This document shows positions 36,795 to 60,117 of a DNA stretch of 64,000 bases, piece after piece. The notes beneath the pieces were generated by a model. The model saw nothing but the letters and a program-made list of their open reading frames with translations. It searched no databases and was not told where the DNA came from. The stretch lies in IMG/VR virus record IMGVR_UViG_3300036859_000816, positions 1 to 64,000 of that record. One strand, 5' to 3'. Position 1 is the first letter of the stretch. Every line of letters starts with the position of its first letter. This DNA comes from a virus. Made by a program: the position numbers and the translations under genes.

Positions 36795-37048
36795 TGCCTC
36801 GCCGAACGTCGGTTCACGTAGCTGTAGCCAATGATGGCGACGAGTCCGAGTAGCCCAGCCACTCCGGTTGCCACCGCTCCGCCGACAGCATAACCGAAGC
36901 GCTGACGATCAGTCGGAGCGGCGAAGTAGCCGGCAGCGGCACCGAGTGTGCCATCAACCAAAAATGATCCTGTCGATTGCGTGATGCCACGCAAGGCTAT
37001 GCCGGACAGACCATCAGGCGGAACCGTTACGAGCTGCGTTGTAACCAC
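36791..37048 (-). CDS. Small glycine-zipper membrane protein
   Basis: GLSG then GAAAGY...GGAVATGVAGLLGLV. Confidence 0.65.
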   Translation of the reverse strand: MVTTQLVTVPPDGLSGIALRGITQSTGSFLVDGTLGAAAGYFAAPTDRQRFGYAVGGAVATGVAGLLGLVAIIGYSYVNRRSARQ

Positions 37049-37323
37049 TGTTTCAAATCCTCGCCTATTCGGTAACCAAAGGCGCCGCCGATCAGAATGC
37101 CCGCGAGAGCTCCATTGCGAGCCCAGATCATGGTGCGCGGCGAATCGGTCACATAGCCCGCGGCGCCGCCGATTAGAGCGCCCGAGATCAATCCATACAC
37201 GGCTCCGATGCCACTGAGGCTCGCTGTTGGTGCTGACACAGCCGCATCGGCAAGTGGCCCAAGACCCGACCTAGCGGGAAGCGGCGGCGGAACGCGAGTG
37301 GGGACCAATGCGGACGGAACCAT
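37027..37323 (-). CDS. Small glycine-zipper membrane protein
   Basis: SGLG and LSGIG motifs then two Gly-rich helices. Confidence 0.65.
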   Translation of the reverse strand: MVPSALVPTRVPPPLPARSGLGPLADAAVSAPTASLSGIGAVYGLISGALIGGAAGYVTDSPRTMIWARNGALAGILIGGAFGYRIGEDLKQWLQRSS

Positions 37324-37333
37324 CTAGGCGATC

Positions 37334-37409
37334 AGAATAGCGGCGCCACCAAGAGTCGCGCAACTATTCGAGCTGAAATTTGCCCGAGCGCGGCCTGCGC
37401 CTGTAACGT
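37334..37409. promoter_or_regulatory. Divergent promoter pair
   Basis: Minus strand TTGCGC-18-TATTCT (37363-37334); plus strand TTGCCC-18-TAACGT (37380-37409). Confidence 0.55.
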
Positions 37410-37415
37410 AGCAGC

Positions 37416-37961
37416 GTGGTCGCCATTGCCGCACAACCCATCGCCGATGCGCCGCCATTCGTGCGGTCACGCTTCGGAGGACCGGTTCATACGATTCAGG
37501 TCATGCAGCAGATGTGTGTGGGCCCACGTGGCGAGCGGTCGATGTTGCTGCATTCGCTCCGCAACTACATCGTGCGAGAGCTCCAGCCCAAGGATTACCT
37601 GAGCGAGATTTTAGCCGTCCGGAACTTCGCCAGTGAGCACATTCGCTACTCCAACGATCCGCTGACCGAAGAGCAAGTGCAGGATCCCGAACGCATTACC
37701 GAACAGATCATCAAGTTCGGCAAAGCAGCAGGGGACTGCGACGACCTGGCTCTATGGATTGCAGCAATCTCTCGTCAGCTCGGTCGTGAGGCGCAATTCG
37801 TGACCGTCGGCTTCGAAGCGCCCGGACGCTACAGTCACGTCTTTACGCGCGTAAAGGAACCCAAGAGCGGACAATGGATCGTCTGCGATCCAGTAGCGGG
37901 TTCGAATGAAGCGGCGATGCTGCGCCGTGTGAAGACCTTTCATGTTTGGGATATTCGCTAA
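37416..37961 (+). CDS. Transglutaminase-like cysteine protease (putative maturation protease)
   Basis: GDCDD (Cys), YSHVF (His), WIVCDP (Asp) triad. Confidence 0.85.
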   Translation: MVAIAAQPIADAPPFVRSRFGGPVHTIQVMQQMCVGPRGERSMLLHSLRNYIVRELQPKDYLSEILAVRNFASEHIRYSNDPLTEEQVQDPERITEQIIKFGKAAGDCDDLALWIAAISRQLGREAQFVTVGFEAPGRYSHVFTRVKEPKSGQWIVCDPVAGSNEAAMLRRVKTFHVWDIR

Positions 37962-38845
37962 TGGCATACATTTCGACACTCATTCCGGTTACATTCGTGC
38001 GATCGATCCAAGGCTTGGGCGTAACGCAGAGCGAATACAATGCGTGCCTGGCGGCGCAAGCTGCGTACCAAAGGGATCTTTCTGCTTGGAACACTGAGCA
38101 AGCGGCATACACCGCTGCCGTTTTGCAACGGCAGATAACCATTGCGGCGCAGACGGCGACATACAACGCAGCCTACGCGGCGTATGTGAGCGCGCACGAC
38201 CGATGGGTGAAAGCGAAGGCCACGTGGAACAGTTACTTGTCACAGCTCGCGAGTATTGCGGCCGGCTACGCAATGACGACCGCTCAGGTGACGGCAAAGT
38301 ACGGACAGATACTAAGCGGAACGCCGACATGCGTGCCGAAAGACTGGCACACCAAGCTCGCCAACGAATGTTACAACTACAGCAACCCGGTCAAGGGACT
38401 CGGCGCCTTTGATTGGCGCCAATACGAAACGCGCGAGCTCGCCTGCTTTGGTGCCGCACTGCCGACTTGTGTCGATCCGCCGCTGGCTCCGCCGCAACCG
38501 GGACCAGAGCCGATGCCGCCAGTCAAAGCGACGCCGCCTCCAGATGTGCTGCCGTTGCGACCCAAACCGACTGCGCCCTCCTCTTGCATTGCGCCTACGC
38601 CTGTAGCAGTGCCGGCGCCAGTAGTAGCAGTGCCGGCGCCAGTAGCAGTACCAGTCGTAATACCCAAGGCTCAGCCTGATGAAGGAATTAGGGTTGTCGC
38701 GCCAGCCGCGGAAGAAGCCGCTATGGCGCCAGCGGTTCCTATCGAAGCAAAAGCCGGCGGCGGTCTGCTCGTCGCGGGACTGCTGGTGCTCGCTGTAGGC
38801 GGTGGAATCTACCTCATGAGCCGCCGTCGTCCCGCAACAACGTGA
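37961..38845 (+). CDS. Tail-anchored putative virion protein
   Basis: Two GLG motifs, Pro-rich linker, C-terminal TM plus RRR; TAATG-coupled to the protease gene. Confidence 0.75.
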   Translation: MAYISTLIPVTFVRSIQGLGVTQSEYNACLAAQAAYQRDLSAWNTEQAAYTAAVLQRQITIAAQTATYNAAYAAYVSAHDRWVKAKATWNSYLSQLASIAAGYAMTTAQVTAKYGQILSGTPTCVPKDWHTKLANECYNYSNPVKGLGAFDWRQYETRELACFGAALPTCVDPPLAPPQPGPEPMPPVKATPPPDVLPLRPKPTAPSSCIAPTPVAVPAPVVAVPAPVAVPVVIPKAQPDEGIRVVAPAAEEAAMAPAVPIEAKAGGGLLVAGLLVLAVGGGIYLMSRRRPATT

Positions 38846-38893
38846 TTTTTTGCGCCTCAGAGCATCGGCGCCGTATGATCGAGGCGAAAGAAC

Positions 38894-39568: not shown

Positions 39569-40011
39569 AGCTATCGGCTTACGAACTTGGCCCCGTAGTG
39601 GAGTGGCCGATGAGTGGAGTCCATCCCGAGCTCGTACAGGCTTCGCTCTTGCCCCTGCGTTCGACGCCGCCCGCGCGGCCGATGGACGGATGGAATGGTA
39701 TGTCCGCTTACGAGCTTTGGCCGGCGTACGGTTTCGGTGCGCGCCGTCTGCGCCGCGCTTGGCCGCTCTATGGTGTTGGCGCAGAAGAGCCACCGCCGGG
39801 TGCTCCAGCTGAGCCCGCGCGTGAGGCCGCTCCGATCGGCAAAGGATTGTTCATCGGTGCGGCGTACGGCATTGCTATCGGCATGGTCGCAAGTGAGTTT
39901 GTGATGCGTAAGCCCGATGCCACGCAACAGCTCAAGCAAAACCATCAACTCGTGATGTTTGGCGCGCTGTTCGGTGCGGCCGTCGGCGCCTTTGGAGCGG
40001 TGCAAGCGTGA
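39565..40011 (+). CDS. Membrane protein
   Basis: SAYEL repeated twice, YGFG and YGVG motifs, two TM helices. Confidence 0.7.
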   Translation: MKLSAYELGPVVEWPMSGVHPELVQASLLPLRSTPPARPMDGWNGMSAYELWPAYGFGARRLRRAWPLYGVGAEEPPPGAPAEPAREAAPIGKGLFIGAAYGIAIGMVASEFVMRKPDATQQLKQNHQLVMFGALFGAAVGAFGAVQA

Positions 40012-40394
40012 AAGACCCGAACCTGCAACGCATCTTCGGTCTTGGCGATAATCCCGATGGATTGGGCCAGAACTACGCGACGAGGGAAACCAGTGGACCG
40101 GGTTCCGGACTCGAGCACGTGCCGCTATATTCGCGTGGAGCGCCGACGCTGATCAATCACGGCGCTGCCAAGGTACTTGGTCAAGACGATACCACCGAAG
40201 GATTGGTTGCGGGACTGACCGGCTTAGTCGTGCGCGCAGGAGGCGGAGCCATCGTTGGAATGGCTCTCGCTCCGAGTAAGGACAAGTGGACGGTTTATGG
40301 AATCACTGGCGCGGTTCTAGGCGCGGTGTTCGGCACGCTCGGTATGATGGGTCAAGCGACATACGTTTTGTTGACGCGAGAAGGTCGACAATGA
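40008..40394 (+). CDS. Glycine-zipper membrane protein
   Basis: Two GLG motifs; TM region similar to 36791-37048. Confidence 0.7.
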   Translation: MKDPNLQRIFGLGDNPDGLGQNYATRETSGPGSGLEHVPLYSRGAPTLINHGAAKVLGQDDTTEGLVAGLTGLVVRAGGGAIVGMALAPSKDKWTVYGITGAVLGAVFGTLGMMGQATYVLLTREGRQ

Positions 40395-41416
40395 CGATGA
40401 ACCTACGCCGCAATTTGATGGGACCGTATCAGCGCGGTGTGCCCAGTCAATACGTCGTCCACTATCATCCGTGGCCAACGCGCTTCCATGGTCCGCTGTA
40501 TCAGCGTCCCGTTTTCAATTTCCCATGGATGAGCTCGCCGCAGAACGTCTTCAAGCCTGGTGATTTCTATCCCGGAGAACTCACCGAGGAGCAAATGTCA
40601 GTGCAAGGACTCGGAGCAGACAGTCGTTATCAAACTGGCCAAGAGGCGATGGCTTACAACGTAGGTCGCGGCATCTTCAAGCCGGGCGGTTACGGCGGCG
40701 GCATCTTTGATGGTAATCTATCCGGCGACAAAGTCGCTCGACCGCTCGGCACGCCGCAGCGTCGTCGACGGCGTCGTCGCGGCATGAGTGGCTTGGGTGC
40801 TGCAACGGGACCAGTGCCGTCGACATGCTGGGACAGCCAAGCGTTCAAAGATTGCCAAGCGCGCGTCTTTGCAAAAGCGCAAGGTGACTGTCCCAAGACG
40901 GGTTACCCGAATGCGGCATATCCGAGCTACGACGATTGCGTAAAGGATCTGGCTGCAACGTATGTAGGTCCATCAGCAGAATCGCTCACCTGCGTTTCGC
41001 AGTATTGCGGTGGTGCCGCAGCAAAAACTGCAACGGGCGCATATCCGTGGGGCACATACAGCGCGGAGACGTTACGAATTCAAAAGGAAACGAACACTGC
41101 GCTTGCGCTCAAGGGTTTCTGTCCCATTGTAGCTGACGGTAAACTTGGACCCGCCACATGCGGCGCACGCAAAGCGCTGAGCGACCTTGGTCTGAGTTTT
41201 CCTGTTCCTTCAACCTGCCAAAAATTCACGGCACCGACTAAACCGCCATGTCCAGGTGGAGCGCCGGGACCAGTATTCGAGCCGGGGAAAGGCATCACTA
41301 CGGCATCGATGCTGCCCGGTGCCGGTCCTGACTGGACGATGATCGCGGCATTCGGTGTCGGTGCCGTCGCAGTGCTCGGCATCGGATACTTTCTACTGAC
41401 TCGAAAGGAGCAATAA
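40391..41416 (+). CDS. Tail-anchored protein with peptidoglycan-binding-like domain
   Basis: RIQKETNTAL...ADGKLGPATCGA; two GLG motifs; poly-Arg run; C-terminal TM. Confidence 0.75.
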   Translation: MTMNLRRNLMGPYQRGVPSQYVVHYHPWPTRFHGPLYQRPVFNFPWMSSPQNVFKPGDFYPGELTEEQMSVQGLGADSRYQTGQEAMAYNVGRGIFKPGGYGGGIFDGNLSGDKVARPLGTPQRRRRRRRGMSGLGAATGPVPSTCWDSQAFKDCQARVFAKAQGDCPKTGYPNAAYPSYDDCVKDLAATYVGPSAESLTCVSQYCGGAAAKTATGAYPWGTYSAETLRIQKETNTALALKGFCPIVADGKLGPATCGARKALSDLGLSFPVPSTCQKFTAPTKPPCPGGAPGPVFEPGKGITTASMLPGAGPDWTMIAAFGVGAVAVLGIGYFLLTRKEQ

Positions 41417-41417
41417 G

Positions 41418-42602
41418 ATGCCCAAAGGAGGCGGCGGCGGTGGTGGCCGTGGTGGAGGGGGAGGCGCGCGTGGAGGCGGTGGCATGCGCATGGGAGGCGG
41501 TTTTCGAGGCGGCCGCGGTGGCATGCGCATGGGCGGCGGCGGCTTTCGTCACCGTTTTCCACGACGGTTTTTCGGTGGCGGCGGAGCCTTCTTTGCGCCC
41601 GGCGGCGGTTGGTGGGGCGACGGTTATCCTTGGTACTGGAACGACTGGGATTACCCGCTCTATCTAATTGAAGACGAAGAAGAACGCGAAGAAGCGCGCA
41701 AGTGGCGTGAATTTCTCGCGATGCAAGCGGCACAGCAAGCGGCTACCCAAGCCGCTCAACTAGCCGTGCAACAAGTCGTCAAGGCGAAGTCGACGAAAGG
41801 TCTGGGTCTAGGTCTCGGCATCTTTCGGCCGAACGATAAGACAGCGCGTCCACTCGGACAGATGATGCCACATTCATGGAATGCACTCGGCGTCATCTTT
41901 GGAAACACGACGGCAGATCCCAAGGTTACGGAAACGCAGAAGTGGCTGAACGGTTACCTGAGCAAGCTTGGCTTCACGACGCTGACGGTCGATGGCAAAC
42001 TCGGAGCTAAGACGTGCGGCGCATGCGCCTGGTCGTTCGGTAATACACCCGACGTCGACATTTCGACCGCGCCACAGGCGTTCTTCGAAGTGTGGAACGT
42101 TTGCGCAAGCTCGTCGCAAACGGCACCGACTCCGCTTACGCAAGCTGCCAAAACTAGCGCGTACACGACCGGCGTCACCGCTATGCAAGCGAAGGTCGTG
42201 GACCCGAAATTGGTCGCGGACACTCAGACTGCATTGAATGTCGGCTTACTTGCGAACGGCATGTGCGCTCTCAGCGTGGATGGCAAAGCAGGGCCGGCTA
42301 CATGCGGAGCACAAGTTTGGTTGATAGCGCATGCCGGTGGTGATGGGCTCACACAAGCGCAACGTGATGCCATTTATCCCGTGTGCTCGGCTGGGTCTAA
42401 AGTAGCGCCCTCGGCGTGTCCGCCCGTGACGGCGGTTGCGCCCGTGGACATTACTAAGAAAGAACCGTCACCCGAAGCGGCGCTCGTTGCCCCAGCGAAA
42501 CCGGCATTTACCGGCGCGACCATGCTTGCCGGTCTAGGCATTGCTGCAGCGCTCGGTGCGCTCTGGTACGTTTACAGTCAGAAGAAGGCTGCCGGCGCAT
42601 GA
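41418..42602 (+). CDS. RGG-rich N-terminus, two peptidoglycan-binding-like domains, C-terminal TM
   Basis: VDGKLGAKTCGA and VDGKAGPATCGA; GLGLGLG linker. Confidence 0.78.
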   Translation: MPKGGGGGGGRGGGGGARGGGGMRMGGGFRGGRGGMRMGGGGFRHRFPRRFFGGGGAFFAPGGGWWGDGYPWYWNDWDYPLYLIEDEEEREEARKWREFLAMQAAQQAATQAAQLAVQQVVKAKSTKGLGLGLGIFRPNDKTARPLGQMMPHSWNALGVIFGNTTADPKVTETQKWLNGYLSKLGFTTLTVDGKLGAKTCGACAWSFGNTPDVDISTAPQAFFEVWNVCASSSQTAPTPLTQAAKTSAYTTGVTAMQAKVVDPKLVADTQTALNVGLLANGMCALSVDGKAGPATCGAQVWLIAHAGGDGLTQAQRDAIYPVCSAGSKVAPSACPPVTAVAPVDITKKEPSPEAALVAPAKPAFTGATMLAGLGIAAALGALWYVYSQKKAAGA

Positions 42603-43147
42603 GACGAGCTTACATTTCCATCGAGGATTTTCGTGCTCCGTTCGATCCCATTCCGTTTCAAGGATTGGGTCAGGACCCGTACGGCGATCCGCGTTGGCAT
42701 GTTCCGGCGCCGCCGCGTCGTTGGCCACGCGGCCGTAGCTATTGGGAGACCGCTCTCTTTCGTGCGCCGTATCGCAAGGGCTACTATCAGGACAACAGCC
42801 TGTTCGGTTTAGGCGCAACTGCGGCGACCGTCAGCGTCCAGGAAGTCCAGAAGGCGGTCGGTGCAGCTCAAACGGGGCAATGGGACGCCGCGACCGTGTC
42901 CGCAGTGCGCAAAAAGCAGAAGCAACTCGGATTGCCCGAAACCGGCGCTCCCGATTTCCCGCTGCTCGCTGCACTCGGCCTGGCTCAAGCTGAAGCGCCG
43001 ACGGTTACACCGGCGGACAGCTTTTTTCGCGACGCTCGTACAGCTCTGAACCAAGTGCCGCAGTGGGCGTACTTGGTGGGCGGCGGATTGCTCATGTTTT
43101 TGGCTTGGAACGGTTACCAGAGCTGGCGGCGGCAACCGGGTACGTAA
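42599..43147 (+). CDS. Peptidoglycan-binding domain membrane protein
   Basis: VQKAVGAAQTGQWDAATVSAVRKKQKQLGLPETG; two GLG motifs; C-terminal TM. Confidence 0.78.
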   Translation: MRRAYISIEDFRAPFDPIPFQGLGQDPYGDPRWHVPAPPRRWPRGRSYWETALFRAPYRKGYYQDNSLFGLGATAATVSVQEVQKAVGAAQTGQWDAATVSAVRKKQKQLGLPETGAPDFPLLAALGLAQAEAPTVTPADSFFRDARTALNQVPQWAYLVGGGLLMFLAWNGYQSWRRQPGT

Positions 43148-43150
43148 GCG

Positions 43151-44086: not shown

Positions 44087-44088
44087 CC

Positions 44089-44993: not shown

Positions 44994-44996
44994 ACC

Positions 44997-48351: not shown

Positions 48352-48487
48352 GCGCTTCAACCACCAAAAAGCGCAAAAATTTGCGCAACCTATCCCCCTC
48401 TGCGTAGGCTTGCCCTACCGCATCGTCCTAAGTGGCTCTCCGGACCGCTAGGCGCTCCCTGCAGTGACGCAGGATTGCGACCTGAAG

Positions 48488-50365: not shown

Positions 50366-50380
50366 CCGAAGTTCACGCAA

Positions 50381-52838: not shown

Positions 52839-53807
52839 ATGCAGCAAATCGATCTCGGTCAACTAGTCCAAGGCGTTGCCTCGGCGAACGCGAACGCGCA
52901 ACGCGCACTCAAGGCCGTCAACGAATTCTCGCAGGCAGCAGGTCCCGATCTCAAGGCGGCTCGTGGCGAAATTCGCCGTCTCATTGAGGACACAGCGGTC
53001 CTCAAGGAGGCGATGACCAAGCTCGAAGCGCAGCGCACGGGCAACCCGAAAATCCAGTACGTCGAAAATATCCCGGGTCGACGCATTCCATTTGACGCGC
53101 TCGTGGACATTCCCATCGGCGCGGGCATAACGAGCACGCAGCAAGGCACGATCACGATCTCGCAGGAAGGTCCGTTCGTGGCCGTGGCGCGCTTCGTGAC
53201 GTTGCAGTCGCAGTTCCAGTTTCAGTTCGTTGATCCCGTGACACTGGCGAAGATCAGCTTCATGGGGCGCAGCTTTGGTCGCTACCGTCCAGTGCACTCG
53301 GCATGGGATCTGTCCGATGGTCGACCCGTCGATCAAGTGTCGATGGTCGTCGGCTTTCCTGGCTCGGGTGCGCCGCACGTCATCAGCCCGAGCAATGAAT
53401 CGCCGTGGCGCAGTATGGAAGGCGACTTCCGCATTCTCTTCGTCGAAGCCGGCTCGAGCTATCCGCGCAGCAACATTGAAGTGCCGAGTCCGTTTTGGAC
53501 GACGCAGATCAATTCGCCCTTTCAGCTCGGAGCTCTGGACGTTTTTGAACGCGGCGAAGTGCTGACGTTCAAGGTGCTGCCGACGCACGAGAACAATCCG
53601 CCGTTCGGTAACATCTTCGGCTTTGGCGCACCCAACCCGAATTTCCCGTTCGTCACGAGCGGCTGGGACGCCGTCGAAGGCATCAGCGACCCAAACCGAC
53701 TGGATGCCGGAAATACCGATCCAATTACGCGGCTACCCAACGCGATCATGACCATCGGCTTCCACGGCTATCGCATTATTCAGCCGCCGGGCGGTGGTCC
53801 GTACTGA
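52839..53807 (+). CDS. Candidate capsid / minor capsid protein (N-terminal coiled coil plus beta-sandwich)
   Basis: ITISQEGPFVAV, FERGEVLTFKV, terminal IGFHGYRI; AGGAG RBS. Confidence 0.55.
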   Translation: MQQIDLGQLVQGVASANANAQRALKAVNEFSQAAGPDLKAARGEIRRLIEDTAVLKEAMTKLEAQRTGNPKIQYVENIPGRRIPFDALVDIPIGAGITSTQQGTITISQEGPFVAVARFVTLQSQFQFQFVDPVTLAKISFMGRSFGRYRPVHSAWDLSDGRPVDQVSMVVGFPGSGAPHVISPSNESPWRSMEGDFRILFVEAGSSYPRSNIEVPSPFWTTQINSPFQLGALDVFERGEVLTFKVLPTHENNPPFGNIFGFGAPNPNFPFVTSGWDAVEGISDPNRLDAGNTDPITRLPNAIMTIGFHGYRIIQPPGGGPY

Positions 53808-54616
53808 TGGCTGCCGCTGAGATTCAGACTTGGCTGCGTCAGCAGGGTATACCGGCGCAACCGGTCGCTAGCGTACTCGATCGATTTGCGAAGGTGCCGA
53901 GCGAATGCGGATCGCTACGTGTGCAATTTTCCGGTAGTTGGTTGCTGCAACTCGCAAACCATCCGACCACAACTCCATTCGAGCACAGCTTTCGCAAGCT
54001 ACCGCAGGATGGCATCTTCGCTGCCACACCCGAGCGGCCGAATATCATCGAGCTCGGATCGTTTACTGTGCCCGCAAGCATGGTGTTGCTCGTTCTGGAT
54101 TGGCGGTTTGATATTTATCGACCGAATGGCGCCATCGTCGGCGACGTCGTACCCATCGAAGAACGACGGCTCGCTCTGCAAATCGGTTGGGACGTGGTGT
54201 TCAGCGCGAAGCGGACCGCCAACCTCGAATACGAAATCACACCCGCGCCACCTACGACCGGCGGTCTGTCCGCATATAAGGCGAATCCCAACGCTGGCAT
54301 CATTCCGGACAACTTTGGCATCGCGCTGCCGCCCGCGTCACAGGTCGAATTTGATCGCATACGCTTCCTGCAGACGCAGGAGCCGAGCGGCTTAGGCGCA
54401 TCAATGCTCCCACAGCGACATCGGCGGGACGTCCAACCGCAAATGCCGTTTACGTACATTCTCGAGGAAAATCAGACCATTCAGTTTTTGAACATTGCCT
54501 TTCAGCCCGTGCCCATCCCGCTCGCCTTCTTTGAGGTGGAATTCAGCGGGCTGCTTTTGGGCTCCAATGCGTTCAAAGAGTTCATCAAGGGCTCGAATCC
54601 TTGCGTGGGCTACTGA
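53807..54616 (+). CDS. Candidate minor capsid protein (beta-sandwich)
   Basis: LGSFTVPASMVLLV, terminal VEFSGLL; TGATG coupling. Confidence 0.5.
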   Translation: MAAAEIQTWLRQQGIPAQPVASVLDRFAKVPSECGSLRVQFSGSWLLQLANHPTTTPFEHSFRKLPQDGIFAATPERPNIIELGSFTVPASMVLLVLDWRFDIYRPNGAIVGDVVPIEERRLALQIGWDVVFSAKRTANLEYEITPAPPTTGGLSAYKANPNAGIIPDNFGIALPPASQVEFDRIRFLQTQEPSGLGASMLPQRHRRDVQPQMPFTYILEENQTIQFLNIAFQPVPIPLAFFEVEFSGLLLGSNAFKEFIKGSNPCVGY

Positions 54617-54753: not shown

Positions 54754-55551
54754 ATGACCGCACTCGGCGCTTACTACGCGACCAAAACACTGGAACCGAT
54801 TGCCGGCTTGGGTCACCTGGGTCAAGCGCCCGAGCAGACCATGTCGGCGCTGGCCGCCAATACGATGCAGAGCTTTCTGCAGTCGATTCAGCCGCTCGGT
54901 ATCTACATTCCCTGGGCCGACCAGGTAGGCGAACACGACTGGAAGGTCGTTTCACCCGATCAGCGGTACGCCCTATATCCCGTAACGGCGGACATCTTGT
55001 CGTCCGCGGAACGGGCATCGTTCGGGCAACCCGTCGGCTTCGTTACGGTGTTGTCGGCGCATCAGCTCACTCTCGCTGATGCGGCACGTCTATTTGATGG
55101 CACGCCGTTCGAGTACTTCTCGACGGATGCATCGTACCGTGATGACGATCACAAATCCGCGCCAACGATTTACTTCGTCTACTGGGGTCGGTTGCGCGAC
55201 ACGGCGCAGACCGTCGGCAACTACAAGACGCTCGAGAGCCAAGCCAAAGCGATGGGTGTTCAGCTCGCGTTTCCCGTGTACGTCAACGTACCGGCCGACG
55301 CGACGCAACCCGCGATCGATTTCAATCTTGCGCTCAAAGCTCAACAGCTCGCGCCGACGACCGCGGCCATGCCAACGGCGATTGCGCCAACGCCAGTCGC
55401 ACCTACGGCGATAGCGCCCGCGGCTGCCGTAACGCAGAAATCATCCGGCATCCCTTCGTTGCTGTTGATTCTGGCCGTTGGCGGAGTGGCCGCTTACGCC
55501 GGCTACCGCATCATGCACGGCGGTCGTCGCAGAGCCGCCACTGTGTCGTAA
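54754..55551 (+). CDS. Tail-anchored putative virion protein
   Basis: IAGLGHLGQ, PTA-rich linker, C-terminal TM plus RRR. Confidence 0.75.
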   Translation: MTALGAYYATKTLEPIAGLGHLGQAPEQTMSALAANTMQSFLQSIQPLGIYIPWADQVGEHDWKVVSPDQRYALYPVTADILSSAERASFGQPVGFVTVLSAHQLTLADAARLFDGTPFEYFSTDASYRDDDHKSAPTIYFVYWGRLRDTAQTVGNYKTLESQAKAMGVQLAFPVYVNVPADATQPAIDFNLALKAQQLAPTTAAMPTAIAPTPVAPTAIAPAAAVTQKSSGIPSLLLILAVGGVAAYAGYRIMHGGRRRAATVS

Positions 55552-56192
55552 TGCTGCCGATCATAGCGGTATCGGGATTAGGTGCGACGCAGGCGGATCA
55601 ATCTTCTGTGCGCTGCCGAACGCGAGCGCGCCCATGGGGTGCAACCCAATCATCCGAGCCTAGCTGTCAACCGCGGCCGCAACCCTGGTCGTGGATGCTC
55701 CCACCAGCGCCACCCGCTATCTCTACACCACCGAAGGTAGCCGTTGTCCGTGCTCCGGTTGTAGTCGCCAAGCCGCCGCCGGTCGTAAAAGCAAAGCCTG
55801 CACCCGTTGTAACAGTCAAGCCTGCTCCGACCGTAGTAAAATGCGAACCGGGAATGAAAGACTGCGCATGCAGAGCAGATAGCACGTGCGACCGCGGTTC
55901 GCGTTGTGTGGCGCACACGTGTGTGCCATGCAAACTGGGTACGCATAAATGCCAATGCGATGACAATGGAAAATGTCCGGGGCGCACAAGCAAAACCGGG
56001 AAGCTCTATTGCAAGTCGGGCATCTGCAAAAAGAGAGTGCACCACGGCATCTGGCCATTTTCTTCAACGAGCTACGAAGGACTCGGTGAAGAGCCGGCCG
56101 CACCGCTTTGGGCTTGGGCTGGTATCATCGGTTTGACGGGATTCATCTTTTGGTCGACGCTCCGTCCGCCGCGCCTACCGATAGGACGCTGA
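55551..56192 (+). CDS. Cys-rich tail-anchored protein
   Basis: Two six-Cys repeats between two GLG motifs, C-terminal TM. Confidence 0.75.
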   Translation: MLPIIAVSGLGATQADQSSVRCRTRARPWGATQSSEPSCQPRPQPWSWMLPPAPPAISTPPKVAVVRAPVVVAKPPPVVKAKPAPVVTVKPAPTVVKCEPGMKDCACRADSTCDRGSRCVAHTCVPCKLGTHKCQCDDNGKCPGRTSKTGKLYCKSGICKKRVHHGIWPFSSTSYEGLGEEPAAPLWAWAGIIGLTGFIFWSTLRPPRLPIGR

Positions 56193-56193
56193 T

Positions 56194-56436
56194 ATGGCTG
56201 AACCGCAACTGGTCGTCAGTCCCCAGGACATCGAGAAGGTACTGAAAGGGGCCAAAGCGATCGGTAACCCGATGGCCATCGTTCAACGCTTTGCCGGCCT
56301 GGGCGAAGCGGAACAGCAGGCGGGTATACCGGGATGGGCTTGGTTGTCGCTGGCCGTGGGCGTCGGTGTCGTAGTGGGCATGCAACTACGGCCCGCAGTG
56401 GATGATTTTTTGCAGAACCGCGGCTTCCGCCGCTAA
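56194..56436 (+). CDS. Small tail-anchored protein
   Basis: FAGLGE then TM. Confidence 0.7.
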   Translation: MAEPQLVVSPQDIEKVLKGAKAIGNPMAIVQRFAGLGEAEQQAGIPGWAWLSLAVGVGVVVGMQLRPAVDDFLQNRGFRR

Positions 56437-56448
56437 ACTGGAGCGGCA

Positions 56449-57948
56449 ATGGCGTACAACCACATGTCGGCATATCAGGAAGGCATTCTCGGCGCTTTAA
56501 TGCGTCAGCCCGGCTCCGTGCACGAAGGCAGCCTGGGCGTGCTCATGCGTCAGCCCGGGTCTGTACACGAGGGCAGTCTGGGCATTCTGATGCGTCAGCC
56601 GGGCTCCGTGCACGAAGGCAGCCTTGGCGTGCTCATGCGCCAGCCTGGGTCTGTACACGAGGGTAGTTTGGGCGCACTCATGCGTCAGCCGGGATCCGTT
56701 CACGAAGGCAGCTTAGGCGTGACGCCGCGCCGTCGCATTTGGACAGCCGCATCACCGCTCTTGCAAGGGATCGGTCTGGCGCCTGCACCAATGACCGCTC
56801 CGGGAACGTCCGTCATGATGGCTCCGCGCGTTGCGGGTATGCCCGCGTACGCGCGCGCGGCGGCGGAACGAGCTCGCGCCCGCGCGGAATGTCAAGCGCG
56901 CTGCTATGCGCTGCCGACAGCAAAGCGCCCGGGCTGTCTGTCGGGTTGTTCCCGATCCTATCCCGTGAGCGGCCTCGGAGCTCTGATGGCGCCGCCTGGT
57001 GCGGCCGTCATGATGCGGCCACCAACGCGGGCAATGCCCGCATCGGCGCGTGCTGCCATGGAGCGCGCCCGGGATCGCGCGGAATGCCGCTCGCGCTGCT
57101 ATGCGCTGCCGTCGGCGTCGCGTACGCCGTGTCTATCGACGTGTTTAGCAACGTACCCCTTGACCGGTCTCGGAGCGGATGGAGATGCAGCCGCAGCGGC
57201 CGCACGCGAAGCCGCCGAACACGCAACGACCCGTGTGTCGTCTGAACAGGCGGCTTCAGCTGCAACGATCAAAGCTTCGCAGGCAGCGGCTCAGGCTGCT
57301 GCGGCGACGCATCCGATCGAACGAGCGGCGGCTGAGAGTGCAGCGTCCGCGGCAGCAGCCGCTGCTGCACAACATACCCAACAAGCGCAAGCGGCTCGGG
57401 CTGCTGAGATCAGTGCCGTCGCTAGAATGCGGATGATTGCGGCATCGCCACATCGTCCGCACTATCCGCCCTGGGCCGCAGCGGCAGCCATTGTGCCGCC
57501 TGGTCAGCGCGTACGCAGGCGCGCTACGCCGTGGTTTGGACAGTACGGTCGGGCAGCGAAAACCATTGGCAAGGGATTCTCGAAGGTTCAGCACTACGCG
57601 GAAACGCCCGAGCGATACATACAAAAGGTGCCCGTTGTGGGCACTGCGGCGAAAGCGGCGAAGACTGTTATCGAGGCTCCCATCAAAGCCATTACGTCAC
57701 TTTTCGGTCTGGGCGCGGCGCCGCAAACGGTTGCCGCCAAAATGGCTTCCGCGACGGCACGCGCGGTTTGTCTCAAGAACTGTGAAAAGCGTCCGGGAGC
57801 CGCATTCGCTCCATGCGTGAGTAGCTGCTTGAATCAGTATCCCTTGCATGGTCTGGGCGCCGAAACACCGGCCGGGGATACGAGCTGGCTCTGGATCGTG
57901 GGAGGCGTGGCACTGCTCGGCGCAGTCGTAGTAATGGCGTCGCGGTGA
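56449..57948 (+). CDS. Repeat-built polyprotein with C-terminal TM
   Basis: Five 15-aa repeats, three CX3CX10CX3C modules, four GLG motifs. Confidence 0.8.
   Translation: MAYNHMSAYQEGILGALMRQPGSVHEGSLGVLMRQPGSVHEGSLGILMRQPGSVHEGSLGVLMRQPGSVHEGSLGALMRQPGSVHEGSLGVTPRRRIWTAASPLLQGIGLAPAPMTAPGTSVMMAPRVAGMPAYARAAAERARARAECQARCYALPTAKRPGCLSGCSRSYPVSGLGALMAPPGAAVMMRPPTRAMPASARAAMERARDRAECRSRCYALPSASRTPCLSTCLATYPLTGLGADGDAAAAAAREAAEHATTRVSSEQAASAATIKASQAAAQAAAATHPIERAAAESAASAAAAAAAQHTQQAQAARAAEISAVARMRMIAASPHRPHYPPWAAAAAIVPPGQRVRRRATPWFGQYGRAAKTIGKGFSKVQHYAETPERYIQKVPVVGTAAKAAKTVIEAPIKAITSLFGLGAAPQTVAAKMASATARAVCLKNCEKRPGAAFAPCVSSCLNQYPLHGLGAETPAGDTSWLWIVGGVALLGAVVVMASR
56494..56718 (+). repeat. Five tandem 45-bp coding repeats
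   Basis: xLMRQPGSVHEGSLG five times with synonymous variation. Confidence 0.95.
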
Positions 57949-58544
57949 ATCCAACCGGCATCGACGGATTTTTGCATCGGCTCGGCGAAGTCCTCGGAAC
58001 ACTGCAAGCCGCGCCGGGTCCCGTCCATCGGCGCATCTGGATCGAGCTCGGTCCCTGGCTTCGAACACTGACGGTTGAGGCCGCGCCGAAGTGGCTCGGG
58101 CGGCTCGCCGCCGAGTTGCCATGTCATGTTGCAGCGATCGAACATGATGGCGCGCGCAAGTGTCCTCGGCATGCCGTCGCGCTCTGCATGCTCTGCGGTG
58201 GCGCAACGTGCCTCGAGCACGCGTTCATCGATATCCACGGCGAATCGATCTGTTACGTATGTGCGACGAAAGCGTTACACGGTCATGTGCACCACGCGCC
58301 GCCGCCAAAGGTACCGCGAGACGTGCAGTCACCGCGCGATGTCGCCTGGGCTTGCCGGCAGCTCAAAGTAGACAGCGACGTGACCGCGGCCGAGTTACAT
58401 ACTGCGCACCGCAAGTTAAGCGCACACTGGCATCCGGACCGCTATCGTACTGAGCAACAGAAGGCAAACGCAGAGCGACGCTTCAAGGACGTTCAACGAG
58501 CTTTCGATATCTTGCAGAAGCATCTGCAACGTAGTGCTGCATGA
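57945..58544 (+). CDS. J-domain (DnaJ-like) protein with B-box-like zinc finger
   Basis: HRKLSAHWHPDR...AERRFKDVQRAFDIL; CMLCGGATCLEH...CYVC. Confidence 0.88.
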   Translation: MNPTGIDGFLHRLGEVLGTLQAAPGPVHRRIWIELGPWLRTLTVEAAPKWLGRLAAELPCHVAAIEHDGARKCPRHAVALCMLCGGATCLEHAFIDIHGESICYVCATKALHGHVHHAPPPKVPRDVQSPRDVAWACRQLKVDSDVTAAELHTAHRKLSAHWHPDRYRTEQQKANAERRFKDVQRAFDILQKHLQRSAA

Positions 58545-58588
58545 GGGAGTAAAATCTGACTGAGCTGAATAAGCTGAGCGATGCGACC

Positions 58589-58816
58589 GTGCATCAGCAC
58601 GCTGTGATAGCGCTACGTGAAGCGACCAAACAATTGGTGGATGCGCAAGCGGATCTAGCCTTGGGCAGCATTCTCCGATCGACGATCGATATGGCGTTGA
58701 AGAGCGTAGAAGACGCGCGCGAGGCAGTGTACGAACTGCGCCGTCGAGCCGGCGCGACAACGCGCCTGCGATCTCAGTTGCCGCGTGACGACGATGATCC
58801 GCATGCCAAACGCTAA
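58589..58816 (+). CDS. Small helical hypothetical protein
   Basis: ORF filling the gap. Confidence 0.5.
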   Translation: MHQHAVIALREATKQLVDAQADLALGSILRSTIDMALKSVEDAREAVYELRRRAGATTRLRSQLPRDDDDPHAKR

Positions 58817-58858
58817 AAATTGGACAATTGCGGCGCGTTGGCGGCAAAATCTGTGGTT

Positions 58859-59662
58859 GTGACTGATCGACTAGCTGCTACCGCTCTCCGCATACTCGCT
58901 CCGCGAGCCGTCGTGTTTGGATTCGGCAATCCGGACAGCTTGCAGAATGTCATCACGACCGACCTGCCGAACGGCGCCGAGTGCTTCGTTATCGAGGACC
59001 GGACGCTGTATCGGCTGAACAAAACGCTGACGGTTACACCGCCCGGCGGAATTCAACCGGTCGGTGGTCCGGGACGCTGGGTTCCCGATTTCGGTCCAAC
59101 CGGCCCAACGGGACCCACCGGAACGAGCGGAAGTACGGGACCGACCGGAGTCGGCACGACGGGTGCGACCGGTACAAGCGGCGCAGCAACCTTCGGACGC
59201 GCCTCGATGCAATTCGATCCGAGTGTGTTCGGAACCGATGGTGTGTTCGACGTTGCCGCACAAAATAATTGGATAGGAGCCGATAGCACGCAGGTTGCCT
59301 ACGTTGTTCAAACGACACTGAGTGCCGATTGGTCACTGAATGGAACTACTGGCGTGCTGACGTACTCCGGCGTGGATGCATTCTACGCGTTCGTCGGATC
59401 CGTCAATCTGAACTCTCAGGATGGCGTTGCGCGTAATATCGAGGTCGCGTTTACCAAAAATGGTGCATTCATCGGTTCGCCAACCGCTATCTTGAATGCT
59501 ACCGGCGGCTTCACCAATGCGCTCAACTTCATGCCGTATAATCCCACTGCGATGTTCGCCGTATCCGCGACCGATACGATTCAAATGATCGCGCGTAACG
59601 TCGATGCGAACGCAAACCTCGAATACAACCGCCTGAGCGCCATTGGCTGGCGCGTCGGTTAA
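58859..59662 (+). CDS. Collagen-like fibre/spike protein with beta-rich head
   Basis: GPT/GAT Gly-X-Thr triplets then C1q/BclA-like beta-rich C-terminus; start uncertain. Confidence 0.7.
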   Translation: MTDRLAATALRILAPRAVVFGFGNPDSLQNVITTDLPNGAECFVIEDRTLYRLNKTLTVTPPGGIQPVGGPGRWVPDFGPTGPTGPTGTSGSTGPTGVGTTGATGTSGAATFGRASMQFDPSVFGTDGVFDVAAQNNWIGADSTQVAYVVQTTLSADWSLNGTTGVLTYSGVDAFYAFVGSVNLNSQDGVARNIEVAFTKNGAFIGSPTAILNATGGFTNALNFMPYNPTAMFAVSATDTIQMIARNVDANANLEYNRLSAIGWRVG

Positions 59663-59763
59663 GCGTGATGCGGCCTGAACCACGGAAGCGACGTAAATCG
59701 GTATTTTTTGGCGGTAAATCGCGAAAATTCGCCAAACCGGCGAGGACCGGTTAGAAAGACAAC

Positions 59764-60117
59764 ATGAGCTACGCGGGCCTCGGCGCTCATCCCATCCACC
59801 GAAGCCGAGTGGTCACAAGTTCGACCAGCTACGCACGCTTGCATCCGAGTTACTGGCAGGCATTGCAGCCCGACGGACCGTGGGAAGCGGGAGCGCCCGG
59901 CTGGTACACTGCTCCGTATGTCGGCTGGGGCCAGAATCCCGATCGGCACTTGCCTCCCATTCTCGCCAATGATGGCTGCTGCAGTGGATGCGGCGGCTGC
60001 GGCAGTACAGGACAGACCGAAGACGTCTTCCTGAAGCCGCCCATTTGGCCGATCTTTGTCCTACTCGGCGTTGCGGGCCTGGGCATGTTGGCTGTCTACA
60101 AGCTCGCGCAAGATTGA
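59764..60117 (+). CDS. Small tail-anchored protein
   Basis: MSYAGLGA, CCSGCGGCG, C-terminal TM. Confidence 0.72.
   Translation: MSYAGLGAHPIHRSRVVTSSTSYARLHPSYWQALQPDGPWEAGAPGWYTAPYVGWGQNPDRHLPPILANDGCCSGCGGCGSTGQTEDVFLKPPIWPIFVLLGVAGLGMLAVYKLAQD

What the first reader, a model, noticed from the sequence alone, without database searches (positions are those of the whole stretch)
37027..60117. Protease plus shared GLG motif: candidate adenovirus-style virion maturation system in a bacterial virus
Seen: by hand count about 27 non-TM G-L-G sites occur in 16 ORFs of this block (e.g. IQGLGV, VKGLGA, IFGLGD, MSGLGA, FQGLGQ, LFGLGA, MKGLGA, MYGLGA, VSGLGA, YEGLGE, LTGLGA, LHGLGA). About 20 have a hydrophobic residue two positions before the first Gly. 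Variants YGVG, QGIG, GSLG and HLGQ also occur. I found no GLG in the replication proteins at 18.7-34.7 kb. The sites sit at domain boundaries, and the first plus-strand gene of the block is a Cys-His-Asp transglutaminase-like enzyme. Established: adenovirus protease cuts (M/I/L)xGx/G, but it is a different protease clan from transglutaminase-like enzymes. Inference: the 37416 enzyme cleaves or transpeptidates most virion proteins at this motif, a convergent maturation code.
Basis: partly seen in the sequence, partly recalled or inferred. Interest (0 to 1): 0.92.

Follow-up and report, generated by a model that had tools for sequence, protein, structure and literature searches.

The report
Shared Gly-Leu-Gly tag beside viral protease
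Most particle-building proteins of a large, undescribed bacterial virus carry the same short Gly-Leu-Gly signal at their leaders and domain ends, next to a conserved cysteine-protease-like enzyme, which looks like a cut-to-mature system as in adenovirus or phage T4, although no cutting has been shown.

Summary
In 28 ORFs at 35.7-60.1 kb there are 32 G-L-G sites in 17 ORFs, against 5.5 in composition-matched shuffles (0 of 2000 shuffles reach 32). The extended form [VMLIF]-x-G-L-G-A occurs 14 times against 0.16. Codons vary and only the coding frame shows the motif, so selection acts on the protein.

The first plus-strand gene (37416-37961) is a transglutaminase-fold enzyme with an invariant Cys-His-Asp. 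It occurs once in each of 19 relatives searched. G-hydrophobic-G is enriched in the relatives' blocks and only downstream of this gene.

Sites lie in short N-terminal leaders, at the ends of repeated Cys modules, just before membrane anchors, and in tandem in the tail of an Arg-rich core protein. The conserved 251-aa protein folds as a jelly roll most like capsid proteins of membrane-containing viruses, at middling scores.

Best reading (0.45): a leader and cleavage code cut by this protease during particle maturation. This is like adenovirus or T4 in logic, not in ancestry. Cleavage itself, and the enzyme-motif link, remain inferred. The scan noted the same pattern before on other DNA.

The parts
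37416..37961 (+). Transglutaminase-fold Cys-His-Asp enzyme (181 aa), the candidate maturation protease and first plus-strand gene of the block. It has no GLG of its own.
   Evidence: Pfam PF01841, E 8.8e-8, above cut-off. 424 homologues. D107-C108-D109, H141 and D158 are invariant in 16 sequences. It aligns to the PNGase catalytic core at E 0.59, which is weak. 6 of the 16 aligned homologues carry an N-terminal extension; it ends in G-L-G or G-F-G in 4, A-L-G in 1 and G-L-A in 1, just before the conserved PIADAPP core.
37946..38845 (+). Membrane protein with two predicted helices. Sites are IQGLGV at residue 23 and PVKGLGA at residue 151.
40008..40394 (+). Small membrane protein. Leader sites are IFGLGD (residue 11) and DGLGQ (residue 18).
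40391..41416 (+). C-terminally anchored Cys-rich protein. Sites are SVQGLGA and, after an RRRRRR run, GMSGLGA directly before the Cys-rich domain.
   Evidence: The second site is kept as A/S-G-L-G in 8 of 10 aligned relatives.
41418..42602 (+). Gly-rich, C-terminally anchored protein with a weak peptidoglycan-binding match. It has GLGLGLG at residues 128-134 and one GLG inside the membrane helix.
42599..43147 (+). Peptidoglycan-binding-domain protein. Sites are PFQGLGQ (residue 22) and SLFGLGA (residue 70), the second directly before the PG_binding_1 domain.
   Evidence: Pfam PF01471, E 2.5e-6. Both sites are conserved in 3 of 3 relatives that have this N-terminal part. In L019 and L024 the domain is a separate ORF whose Met aligns within a few residues after the aligned GLGA.
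43151..44086 (+). Membrane protein with PMKGLGA at residue 198, at the edge of a predicted helix.
44089..44415 (+). Small membrane protein with RRGLGDD at residue 22. This is probably not a functional site.
   Evidence: The aligned position reads NIN in 5 of 8 relatives.
46028..47716 (+). 562-aa protein with a tape-measure-like or ejection-protein-like segment and one helix. Site LPSGLGDA is at residue 42.
   Evidence: PHROG 167, E 2.2e-6. The site is not conserved in 11 relatives.
48464..50365 (+). Arg-rich 'core' protein. It has a conserved N-terminal domain, about 220 aa of Arg runs, two helices and an acidic Gly-rich tail with four GLG sites (residues 383, 463, 487, 579).
   Evidence: Alignment A5 of 14 orthologues. 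G463/G465 and G487/G489 are invariant or nearly so. Relatives carry tandem GLGEYF, GMGEYF and AAAGxG units.
50493..51248 (+). Highly conserved 251-aa jelly-roll protein, the probable major capsid protein. It has no GLG.
   Evidence: 658 homologues, many 70-86% identical. 170 clusters at 50% identity. AlphaFold2 pLDDT 85.4. Best structural matches: SPV1 capsid protein Z 7.6 (136 aligned residues) and P23-77 VP17 Z 6.9. All Z values are under 8.
51305..52690 (+). HNH-type homing-endonuclease-like gene inserted between the two capsid-like genes. It is not part of the system.
   Evidence: PHROG 3377, E 2.4e-55. In G001 the two flanking genes are adjacent.
52839..53807 (+). Second conserved capsid-module protein (322 aa). 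It has no GLG.
   Evidence: Orthologues in 22 loci. The fold was not determined.
53807..54616 (+). Conserved protein with PSGLGAS at residue 195. The site lies in a Gly/Ala/Ser loop and is only loosely conserved.
54754..55551 (+). C-terminally anchored protein whose leader is MTALGAYY...EPIAGLGH.
   Evidence: The aligned position is [G/S/H/A]-L-G in 13 of 14 sequences, inside an otherwise gap-rich leader.
55551..56192 (+). Cys-rich protein with AVSGLGA at residue 9. A second site, SYEGLGE at residue 177, lies directly before a C-terminal hydrophobic stretch read by eye as the anchor; the scan flagged no helix in this ORF.
56194..56436 (+). 80-aa membrane protein with FAGLGEA at residue 35, just before the helix.
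   Evidence: Kept as GLG[AE] in 5 of 6 aligned sequences.
56449..57948 (+). Polyprotein-like, C-terminally anchored protein. It has five HEGSLG(V/I/A)LMRQPGSV repeats and three CX3C...CX3C modules, each ending in YPxxGLG|A. An Ala-rich segment ends in SLFGLG|A. The last GLG lies 6 residues before the anchor.
   Evidence: Sites are at residues 175, 240, 420 and 468 (DNA 56971, 57166, 57706 and 57850).
57945..58544 (+). Membrane protein with a C-terminal J domain. It has no GLG and could recruit host Hsp70 during assembly.
   Evidence: Pfam DnaJ, E 1.8e-10. Orthologues in 16 loci.
59764..60117 (+). Small C-terminally anchored protein that starts MSYAGLGA. It has a second GLG inside the helix.
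   Evidence: Relatives' orthologues start 21 residues further in, so they lack this leader.

Best explanation
The block at 37.4-60.1 kb is the particle-building module of a large bacterial virus. The virus has a jelly-roll shell protein and many membrane-anchored minor proteins. More than a dozen of these proteins, otherwise unrelated, carry the short linear signal Pro-hydrophobic-x-Gly-Leu-Gly followed by Ala, Glu, Asp or Gln.

The signal sits at the end of a short N-terminal leader (often M-S/A/T-Y/F...G-L-G), between modules, just before a C-terminal membrane anchor, or in tandem in the tail of the Arg-rich core protein.

The proposal is that the transglutaminase-fold Cys-His-Asp enzyme encoded by the first gene acts as a cysteine protease during or after assembly. 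It would cut at or next to this signal. That would trim leaders, separate polyprotein modules, free domains from their anchors and chop the tail of the core or scaffold-like protein.

Shown: the motif, its enrichment, its conservation, its positions, the enzyme's fold family and its invariant triad, and its universal presence in the group. Inferred: that the block makes virions, that the motif is cut, where the bond is, and that this enzyme does the cutting.
For: 1. Enrichment and protein-level selection of the motif.

2. It is a trait of the lineage. In 29 related loci GLG, GMG, GVG, GIG and GFG exceed expectation, for example L017 GLG 25 against 6.1 and L007 20 against 4.0. The controls GAG and GSG do not.

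3. The enrichment starts at the enzyme gene. In 6 relatives, G[LMVIF]G is 19 observed against 24.8 expected in the 10 kb upstream and 88 against 41.3 in the 10 kb downstream.

4. The enzyme matches Pfam Transglut_core above the cut-off and has an invariant C108, H141 and D158. There is one copy in 14 of 14 main-clade records and 5 of 5 distant-clade records searched. It is also in G001 and 4 further contigs that hold the capsid gene. It usually lies 11-18 kb upstream of the capsid gene on the same strand.

5. Site anatomy. 11 of 30 non-membrane GLG lie in the first 45 residues (background 0.166, p 0.007). In relatives the figure is 156 of 612 (p 4.5e-8). 62 of 744 plus-strand ORFs of the structural loci start M-[STA]-[YF]. 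29 of those 62 have x-hydrophobic-G within the next 16 residues, against 109 of 682 other ORFs (orthologues are not independent).

6. In 56449, three Cys modules and an Ala-rich segment each end in GLG|A, and the last site abuts the anchor. In 42599, the peptidoglycan-binding domain that follows GLGA is a stand-alone ORF in two relatives.

7. Sites are conserved islands within gap-rich linkers: 48464 residues 463 and 487, 54754 residue 18, 56194 residue 35, 40391 residue 134, and 42599 residues 22 and 70.

8. 6 of 16 aligned enzyme homologues carry an N-terminal leader directly before the conserved core: G-L-G or G-F-G in 4, A-L-G in 1, G-L-A in 1. This is what a packaged, self-trimming protease would look like.

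9. No other protease-like family was found in the block. Outside it, the 30 larger proteins scanned gave only an M15 peptidase.

10. Precedents, read as passages. A transglutaminase-like cysteine protease, LapG, cuts at a small-residue di-alanine motif (PMC10990149). T4 internal proteins carry a 10-residue N-terminal capsid targeting sequence, and giant-phage propeptides hold several redundant cleavage sites (PMC9026906). The adenovirus protease processes shell, core and scaffold proteins (PMC4246237).
Against: No cleavage product was seen and no proteome data were available.

Every relative has both enzyme and motif, so co-occurrence does not test the link.

In the distant clade (75-104 kb genomes) the enzyme is present in 5 of 5 records. 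Yet G[LMVIF]G is close to expectation there, with observed/expected of 17/12.3, 23/13.6, 22/13.3, 16/11.8, 12/10.1, 17/14.5, 17/18.9, 12/17.5, 8/10.5 and 13/10.6. That clade shows E-L-G repeats instead. So either specificity has drifted or the link is wrong.

Gene-split points do not fall after the motif more often than chance: 8 of 74 against 5.6.

The residues after the motif (E-Y-F) are conserved in tandem units. That fits a binding motif at least as well as a cut site.

Some sites are not conserved (44089 residue 22, 46028 residue 42, 53807 residue 195).

The window's own enzyme has no leader. So do most IMG/VR relatives.

The fold family also includes non-protease enzymes such as transglutaminases and PNGase.

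The capsid assignment rests on structural matches with Z under 8.
Confidence: 0.45

Rival explanations
1. The motif is a docking or loading tag that is not cut. In this reading the short G-L-G(-E-Y-F) peptide, with its M-S-Y leader, binds a common partner such as the jelly-roll shell protein, the core protein or the membrane. Unrelated proteins would thereby be recruited into the assembling particle. The transglutaminase-fold enzyme would have another job.
For: Tandem GLGEYF, GMGEYF and AAAGxG units have conserved residues after the Gly (E490, F492 and Y495 nearly invariant). That is typical of multivalent binding motifs. The shared M-[STA]-[YF] leader looks like a targeting sequence. The motif is an isolated conserved island, the mark of a short linear motif in general. 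Gene-split points show no link to the motif.
Against: A pure binding tag would not be expected at the end of every module of 56449, nor directly before membrane anchors. In known systems (the T4 capsid targeting sequence, adenovirus pVI; passages in PMC9026906 and PMC4246237) such tags are also cut. A conserved catalytically intact cysteine enzyme heads the operon.
Confidence: 0.25
2. The motif is a processing site, but a host protease or an unrecognised viral one does the cutting. The 37416 enzyme would do something else, such as cell-wall or host-protein cleavage at entry or lysis, or deglycosylation or deamidation.
For: The distant clade keeps the enzyme while G-hydrophobic-G is barely enriched. 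The block also holds peptidoglycan-binding proteins without a recognised catalytic domain, so a papain-fold wall peptidase would fit. Most block proteins have no known family, so another protease could be hidden among them.
Against: The enzyme matches Transglut_core, not NlpC/P60 or CHAP. Some homologues carry the same kind of leader as the virion proteins. An M15 peptidase elsewhere in the genome can account for lysis. The enrichment begins exactly at this gene.
Confidence: 0.12
3. The motif has no specific function. It would be a by-product of Gly-rich flexible linkers and of tandem-repeat expansion in low-complexity tails.
For: Some sites lie in Gly/Ala/Ser loops and are not conserved (53807 residue 195, 44089 residue 22). 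GLGLGLG and the tandem tail units are repeats. GxG overall is also raised, 113 against 71.
Against: Shuffles that keep each protein's composition never reach the observed counts. The flanks are specific at positions -3, -2 and +1. GAG and GSG are not enriched in 29 loci. Sites recur in 17 unrelated ORFs with varied codons and are conserved across 30-60% identical orthologues.
Confidence: 0.08
4. The enzyme works as a transglutaminase or transpeptidase. It would cross-link or ligate virion proteins at the motif.
For: The fold family includes true transglutaminases. In the G001 clade the residue after the motif is often Gln, as in GMGQ and GLGQ.
Against: In the window the residue after the motif is Ala in 16 of 32 sites and Gln in 2. 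No Lys or Gln is a fixed part of the motif. Nothing here tests ligation.
Confidence: 0.05

Closest known systems
Adenovirus protease (adenain) and its cleavage code on shell, core and scaffold precursors
   Same: One virus-encoded cysteine protease is proposed to process many virion proteins at a short Gly-containing consensus with a hydrophobic residue upstream. The substrates include basic DNA-condensing core proteins and a scaffold-like protein with several sites. This matches the logic described in passages of PMC4246237. The consensus (M/I/L)XGX-G and (M/I/L)XGG-X is recalled; the passages I saw show only Met-Arg-Gly-Gly as a consensus substrate and QRGF|G as a non-consensus site.
   Different: The enzyme here has a transglutaminase fold with Cys-His-Asp in that order. 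It gave no Peptidase_C5 match in the Pfam scan. The host is bacterial. The position of the cut bond is unknown. No cleavage has been shown.
Phage T4 capsid targeting sequence with prohead protease gp21, and the phiKZ/SPN3US gp175-type proteases
   Same: Short N-terminal leaders are shared by unrelated internal head proteins. They are removed at a short motif, with several redundant sites per propeptide and a scaffold chopped into pieces (passages in PMC9026906). Here, M-[STA]-[YF]...G-L-G leaders occur on many ORFs.
   Different: Those proteases are serine enzymes that cut after Glu in HK97-fold tailed phages. Here there is a Cys enzyme, a Gly-Leu-Gly motif and a jelly-roll shell protein. No terminase, portal or HK97 family was found among the proteins scanned.
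LapG/DvhG, bacterial transglutaminase-like cysteine proteinases (BTLCP)
   Same: They share the broad fold class and the Cys-His-Asp chemistry. They are sequence-specific endoproteases that cut at a motif of small residues, the di-alanine site, to release a protein from its anchor (passages in PMC10990149).
   Different: LapG is a periplasmic, calcium-dependent regulator of one adhesin. No Peptidase_C93 match was listed for the 37416 protein at E up to 0.1. The motif differs, and here there would be many substrates.
Capsid proteins of membrane-containing jelly-roll viruses (SPV1, P23-77 VP16/VP17, HHIV-2, HCIV-1)
   Same: These are the best structural matches of the 251-aa conserved protein: Z 7.6, 6.9, 6.4 and 6.0. 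Two adjacent conserved capsid-like genes and many membrane proteins recall that virion plan.
   Different: All Z values are under 8, there is no sequence match, and these genomes are 75-182 kb. From memory, those viruses have genomes of tens of kb and no known maturation protease.

Membership tests
Transglutaminase-like superfamily (Pfam PF01841, papain-like clan) | Profile match above the curated cut-off | tested here: met
   E 8.8e-8, 32.8 bits against a cut-off of 23, residues 58-159. Most of the listed homologues carry PF01841.
Transglutaminase-like superfamily (Pfam PF01841, papain-like clan) | Catalytic Cys, His and Asp, in that order, conserved | tested here: met
   C108, H141 and D158 are invariant in 16 sequences down to 37% identity. 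They align with the Cys, His and Asp stretch of PNGase 2f4m, but only at E 0.59.
BTLCP / LapG (Peptidase_C93) | Profile match to the family | tested here: not met
   The Pfam scan at E up to 0.1 lists only Transglut_core and a weak CEP76 peptidase-like hit.
BTLCP / LapG (Peptidase_C93) | Endoproteolytic activity at a defined motif | not testable with these tools
   This needs an enzyme assay.
Adenain (Peptidase_C5, clan CE) | Profile match and His-Glu/Asp-Cys order of the catalytic residues | tested here: not met
   No such Pfam hit. The order here is Cys-His-Asp.
Tailed-phage prohead proteases (HK97 gp4, T4 gp21, ClpP/S49, phiKZ gp175 types) | Profile match of any block protein | tested here: not met
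   No such family in Pfam scans of 30 block and flanking proteins, nor in PHROG scans of 20 of them.
Virion maturation protease system (functional class) | Substrates are virion proteins | tested here: inconclusive
   Jelly-roll model with pLDDT 85.4. The best matches are capsid proteins but all have Z under 8 or Foldseek E above 0.01. Also present: a tape-measure-like segment, tail-fibre-like matches and many membrane proteins. No particle data.
Virion maturation protease system (functional class) | Precursors are cut at the motif in particles | not testable with these tools
   This needs proteomics or co-expression.
Vertical jelly-roll capsid proteins of membrane-containing viruses | Jelly-roll fold of the conserved 251-aa protein | tested here: inconclusive
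   VIA-align: SPV1 Z 7.6 (136 aligned residues), P23-77 VP17 Z 6.9, HHIV-2 Z 6.4, HCIV-1 Z 6.0. Atlas leads to PM2 P2 and PRD1 P3 clusters score only 0.75-0.77. The profile search of PDB sequences found nothing.

The most novel reading that the evidence does not exclude
A widespread, undescribed group of 75-180 kb bacterial viruses has jelly-roll shells, inner membranes and a protamine-like core protein. In this reading the group matures its particles with a transglutaminase-fold cysteine protease. The protease reads a Pro-hydrophobic-x-Gly-Leu-Gly code on more than fifteen virion proteins, including its own leader in some lineages. That would be an independent invention, on a different protease fold, of the leader-plus-cleavage logic of adenovirus, ASFV and T4. 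It would also be the first maturation protease in a prokaryotic jelly-roll virus.
Probability: 0.4. Interest if true: 0.85.

Novelty: new variant of a known kind. Interest (0 to 1): 0.7.

Why it matters
From memory, proteolytic maturation is a hallmark of tailed phages, herpesviruses, adenoviruses and large eukaryotic DNA viruses. It is not described for bacterial or archaeal jelly-roll, membrane-containing viruses.

My searches of the held library for a transglutaminase-like maturation protease in a phage, or for large tailless jelly-roll phages, found no such description.

If the reading is right, three things follow. It would show convergent evolution of a virion 'cleavage code' on a third protease fold. 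The motif could be used to predict virion proteins and mature termini in a large dark virus group: 658 homologues of the capsid protein and 424 of the enzyme in public data. And a short leader might load cargo into these particles, as the T4 targeting sequence does.

All of this is directly testable with two or three recombinant proteins.

Tried and rejected
DNA-level explanation (a repeat or a site in the DNA): rejected. Codons vary and the other five frames lack the motif.

Composition artefact: rejected by within-protein shuffles and by the GAG and GSG controls.

Avoidance of the motif outside the block: not seen, 17 observed against 14.1 expected.

Gene fission at the motif: tested systematically and not supported, 8 of 74 boundaries against 5.6 expected. 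Many boundaries there come from over-long ORF starts or locus edges. Only the 42599 / L019, L024 case stands.

Natural experiment: I looked for a relative with the capsid gene but without the enzyme. None was found, since 19 of 19 records searched have it. The link therefore stays untested.

Tat signal reading of the RRxFLQGLG leaders on some enzyme homologues: rejected by eye, because no hydrophobic stretch follows.

Complex prediction of the enzyme with residues 452-511 of the 48464 tail: no verdict, score 0.00, controls not run. This is no evidence either way.

The first structure job on an 11-row alignment failed with pLDDT 35.7. The second, on 75 rows, gave 85.4.

Foldseek against the PDB and BFVD gave no match at E up to 0.001. 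The profile search of PDB sequences with the capsid family gave nothing.

A single-protein scan for relatives of 56449 found none. The pattern scan with the enzyme alignment found only 6 loci, so I used record-wide searches instead.

A Walker A search found no packaging ATPase candidate in the block; the only two hits are in the replication region. The second Atlas call, on 52839, gave only unnamed clusters.

Supplementary files of papers were not opened. They do not bear on the claims made here.

Full report
WHAT IS THERE. The window is the first 64 kb of a 131,132-bp IMG/VR virus record rated 85% complete. From 37.4 to 60.1 kb runs a plus-strand block of about 26 ORFs. It is preceded by a few minus-strand genes, including a GT1 glycosyltransferase at 35730-36794.

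Across 28 ORFs (7,684 aa) from 35730 to 60117 I count 32 G-L-G sites in 17 ORFs. Twenty-nine of the 32 lie outside predicted membrane helices.

IS IT MORE THAN CHANCE. In 2000 shuffles that keep each protein's composition, GLG averages 5.48 with a maximum of 15, against 32 observed. GLGA is 16 against 0.68. [VMLIF]xGLGA is 14 against 0.16. After the Arg runs, GLG and GLGA are the most over-represented 3-mer and 4-mer of the block.

The flanks are specific:
- hydrophobic at -2 in 21 of 32 sites (background 0.24);
- Pro at -3 in 9 of 32 (background 0.07);
- Ala after the motif in 16 of 32 (background 0.13).

The codons used for G, L and G differ from site to site. The coding frame holds 30 GLG and 15 GLGA, while the other five frames hold 2-5 and 0-1. 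The signal is therefore selected in the protein, not in the DNA.

No ORF from 18686 to 34715 has GLG. With an independent automatic gene call, the block has 17 GLG against 3.8 expected and the rest of the genome 17 against 14.1.

THE ENZYME. The first plus-strand gene, 37416-37961 (181 aa), matches Pfam Transglut_core above its cut-off: E 8.8e-8, 32.8 bits against 23. It has 424 homologues in the public protein collection.

In an alignment of 16 sequences reaching down to 37% identity, D107-C108-D109, H141 and D158 are invariant. These residues align with the catalytic stretch of peptide N-glycanase, though only at E 0.59. There is no match to adenain, LapG-type or tailed-phage prohead protease families.

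Six of the 16 aligned homologues have an N-terminal extension directly before the conserved PIADAPP core. It ends in G-L-G or G-F-G in 4, A-L-G in 1 and G-L-A in 1. The window's own protein, and most IMG/VR relatives, lack such an extension.

WHAT KIND OF VIRUS. Nearly all block proteins are unknown to Pfam and PHROGs. The exceptions are:
- PG_binding_1 in 42599;
- a J domain in 57945;
- a tape-measure-like segment in 46028;
- weak tail-fibre-like matches in 58820;
- an HNH-type endonuclease gene at 51305-52690, which is absent from the same position in a relative.

Most block proteins have a predicted membrane helix, often at the C-terminus.

The 251-aa protein at 50493-51248 is extremely conserved. 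It has 658 homologues, many 70-86% identical, and 170 clusters at 50% identity. With a 75-row alignment AlphaFold2 gives pLDDT 85.4.

The model is a beta jelly roll. Its best matches are capsid proteins of membrane-containing viruses:
- SPV1, Z 7.6 over 136 residues;
- P23-77 VP17, Z 6.9;
- the STIV turret protein, Z 6.7;
- HHIV-2, Z 6.4;
- HCIV-1, Z 6.0.

All Z values are under 8, a range the tool calls middling, so the capsid assignment is probable rather than shown. Foldseek gave nothing at E up to 0.001. Atlas leads point to PM2 P2 and PRD1 P3 clusters at only 0.75-0.77.

No terminase, portal or HK97-type family appeared in any protein scanned. The rest of the genome holds replication genes, many glycosyltransferases, collagen-like proteins, an integrase and a Cas12f-like protein.

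RELATIVES. A scan with the capsid-like family gave 29 IMG/VR loci. Those whose full-length records were searched are 111-182 kb, several with terminal repeats and rated complete.

In all of these loci G-hydrophobic-G (GLG, GMG, GVG, GIG, GFG) tends to exceed expectation, while GAG and GSG do not. In six loci centred on the enzyme gene, the 10 kb upstream have 19 sites against 24.8 expected and the 10 kb downstream 88 against 41.3.

The enzyme occurs once in each of 14 main-clade records searched. It is also in G001 and in four further capsid-bearing contigs.

A more distant clade has genomes of 75-104 kb and a roughly 200-aa capsid-like protein. It has the enzyme in 5 of 5 records. There G-hydrophobic-G is close to expectation. 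Its core-protein tail instead carries EEELG repeats, and some leaders still end in GLG. The common core across clades is therefore x-Leu/Met-Gly. This is also seen in 54754, where the aligned position reads G, S, H or A before L-G in 13 of 14 sequences.

WHERE THE SITES SIT.

(a) Leaders. Eleven of 30 non-membrane sites lie in the first 45 residues (p 0.007). In relatives the figure is 156 of 612 (p 4.5e-8).

Many unrelated ORFs start M-S/A/T-Y/F and reach x-hydrophobic-G within 16 residues. Examples are MSYAGLGA in the window and MSFSGLGG, MSYVGLGN and MTYRSMTGLG in relatives. The count is 29 of 62 such ORFs against 109 of 682 others. Orthologues are counted more than once, so this is descriptive only.

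(b) Module ends. 56449 has five HEGSLG repeats, then two CX3C...CX3C modules each ending YPxxGLG|A. An Ala-rich stretch follows, ending SLFGLG|A, and then a third module ending YPLHGLG|A six residues before the C-terminal helix.

In 55551 a site lies directly before the C-terminal hydrophobic stretch, which I read by eye as the anchor; the scan flagged no helix there. In 40391 and 42599 a site lies directly before a folded domain. The PG-binding domain of 42599 is a separate ORF in L019 and L024, whose Met aligns within a few residues after the aligned GLGA.

(c) The core protein. 48464 has a conserved N-domain, about 220 aa of Arg runs, two helices and a tail. In the tail G463/G465 and G487/G489 are invariant or nearly so. 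Relatives carry tandem GLGEYF, GMGEYF and AAAGxG units there.

(d) Conservation. Several sites are conserved islands in gap-rich linkers, while others are not conserved (44089 residue 22, 46028 residue 42, 53807 residue 195).

HOW IT MOST LIKELY WORKS. The anatomy matches the known logic of proteolytic particle maturation in four respects:
- leaders shared by unrelated proteins;
- redundant sites;
- a basic core or scaffold-like protein with many sites;
- a conserved protease gene.

Passages I read describe this for T4 and the giant phages: a 10-residue capsid targeting sequence, and propeptides with several sites (PMC9026906). They describe it also for adenovirus, where shell, core and scaffold proteins are all substrates (PMC4246237). 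A transglutaminase-like cysteine protease that cuts at a small-residue motif to free a protein from its anchor is known in LapG/DvhG (passages in PMC10990149).

I therefore put 0.45 on the reading that the 37416 enzyme cuts at or beside the motif during assembly. The cut bond (Leu|Gly as in one adenovirus site type, or Gly|Ala) cannot be told from sequence.

WHAT SPEAKS AGAINST.
- Nothing here shows cleavage.
- Enzyme and motif are both universal in the group, so their co-occurrence is uninformative.
- The distant clade weakens a simple one-enzyme, one-motif link.
- Gene-split points are not enriched after the motif.
- The conserved E-Y-F after tandem sites fits a docking motif.

A docking tag that is never cut (0.25), cutting by another protease (0.12), a functionless linker feature (0.08) and cross-linking (0.05) remain as rivals.

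COMPARISON AND NOVELTY. The system works like the adenovirus protease or T4 gp21 systems, but it belongs to neither family. The enzyme is a member of the transglutaminase-like superfamily, with both tested features met. Membership in the LapG family was tested and not met.

Four literature searches found no description of a transglutaminase-fold maturation protease in a phage, nor of such large tailless jelly-roll phages. I class the finding as a new variant of a known kind.

The same pattern was noted earlier by this scan on other genomes, with similar verdicts. Those are unchecked AI notes, and I formed my reading from my own calls before seeing them.

Noticed in passing
window 51305-52690: An HNH-type homing-endonuclease-like gene (PHROG 3377, E 2.4e-55) sits between the two conserved capsid-module genes. 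In the relative G001 those two genes are adjacent, so this looks like a recent mobile insertion.
   Followed up: partly
window 48464-50365: An Arg-rich, protamine-like protein with a conserved 90-aa N-domain, two membrane helices and a conserved acidic tail ending in TW(I/V)PG...LWAG...PAG(I/V)L...G(V/I)FG. It is conserved in 14 aligned viruses. It may be a DNA-condensing core protein tied to the membrane.
   Followed up: partly
window 50493-51248 and 52839-53807; whole record: A very large family (658 homologues) of a jelly-roll capsid-like protein occurs in 75-182 kb virus records. No terminase, portal or HK97-type family was found among the proteins scanned. The only Walker A motifs lie in the replication region (25546, 27019). 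This points to an undescribed group of large tailless, membrane-containing bacterial viruses.
   Followed up: partly
window 57945-58544: A membrane protein with a C-terminal J domain (DnaJ, E 1.8e-10) is conserved in 16 related loci within the structural block.
   Followed up: no
window 56449-57948: Five tandem HEGSLG(V/I/A)LMRQPGSV repeats, followed by three CX3C-X10-CX3C mini-modules. Only one related locus has a partial homologue.
   Followed up: partly
L036-L039 (genome 64-131 kb): At least six glycosyltransferase-like genes, two collagen-repeat proteins, a sulfatase, a tyrosine integrase, an SNF2 helicase, an M15 peptidase and a 707-aa protein with a Cas12f-like TNB domain.
   Followed up: no
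L061-L066, L068-L070, L072: A sister clade of 75-104 kb viruses with a roughly 200-aa capsid-like protein. Enriched peptides there are RRNP (23 against 0.7), EELG (22 against 0.7) and N-terminal MSY (19 against 1.6). These are pooled over 10 related loci, so orthologues inflate the counts.
   Followed up: partly
window 38312-39793 (minus strand): A 493-aa minus-strand ORF overlaps the plus-strand genes 38894-39568 and 39565-40011. The plus-strand 38894 ORF has homologues in 3 related loci, so the long minus-strand ORF is probably a high-GC artefact.
   Followed up: partly
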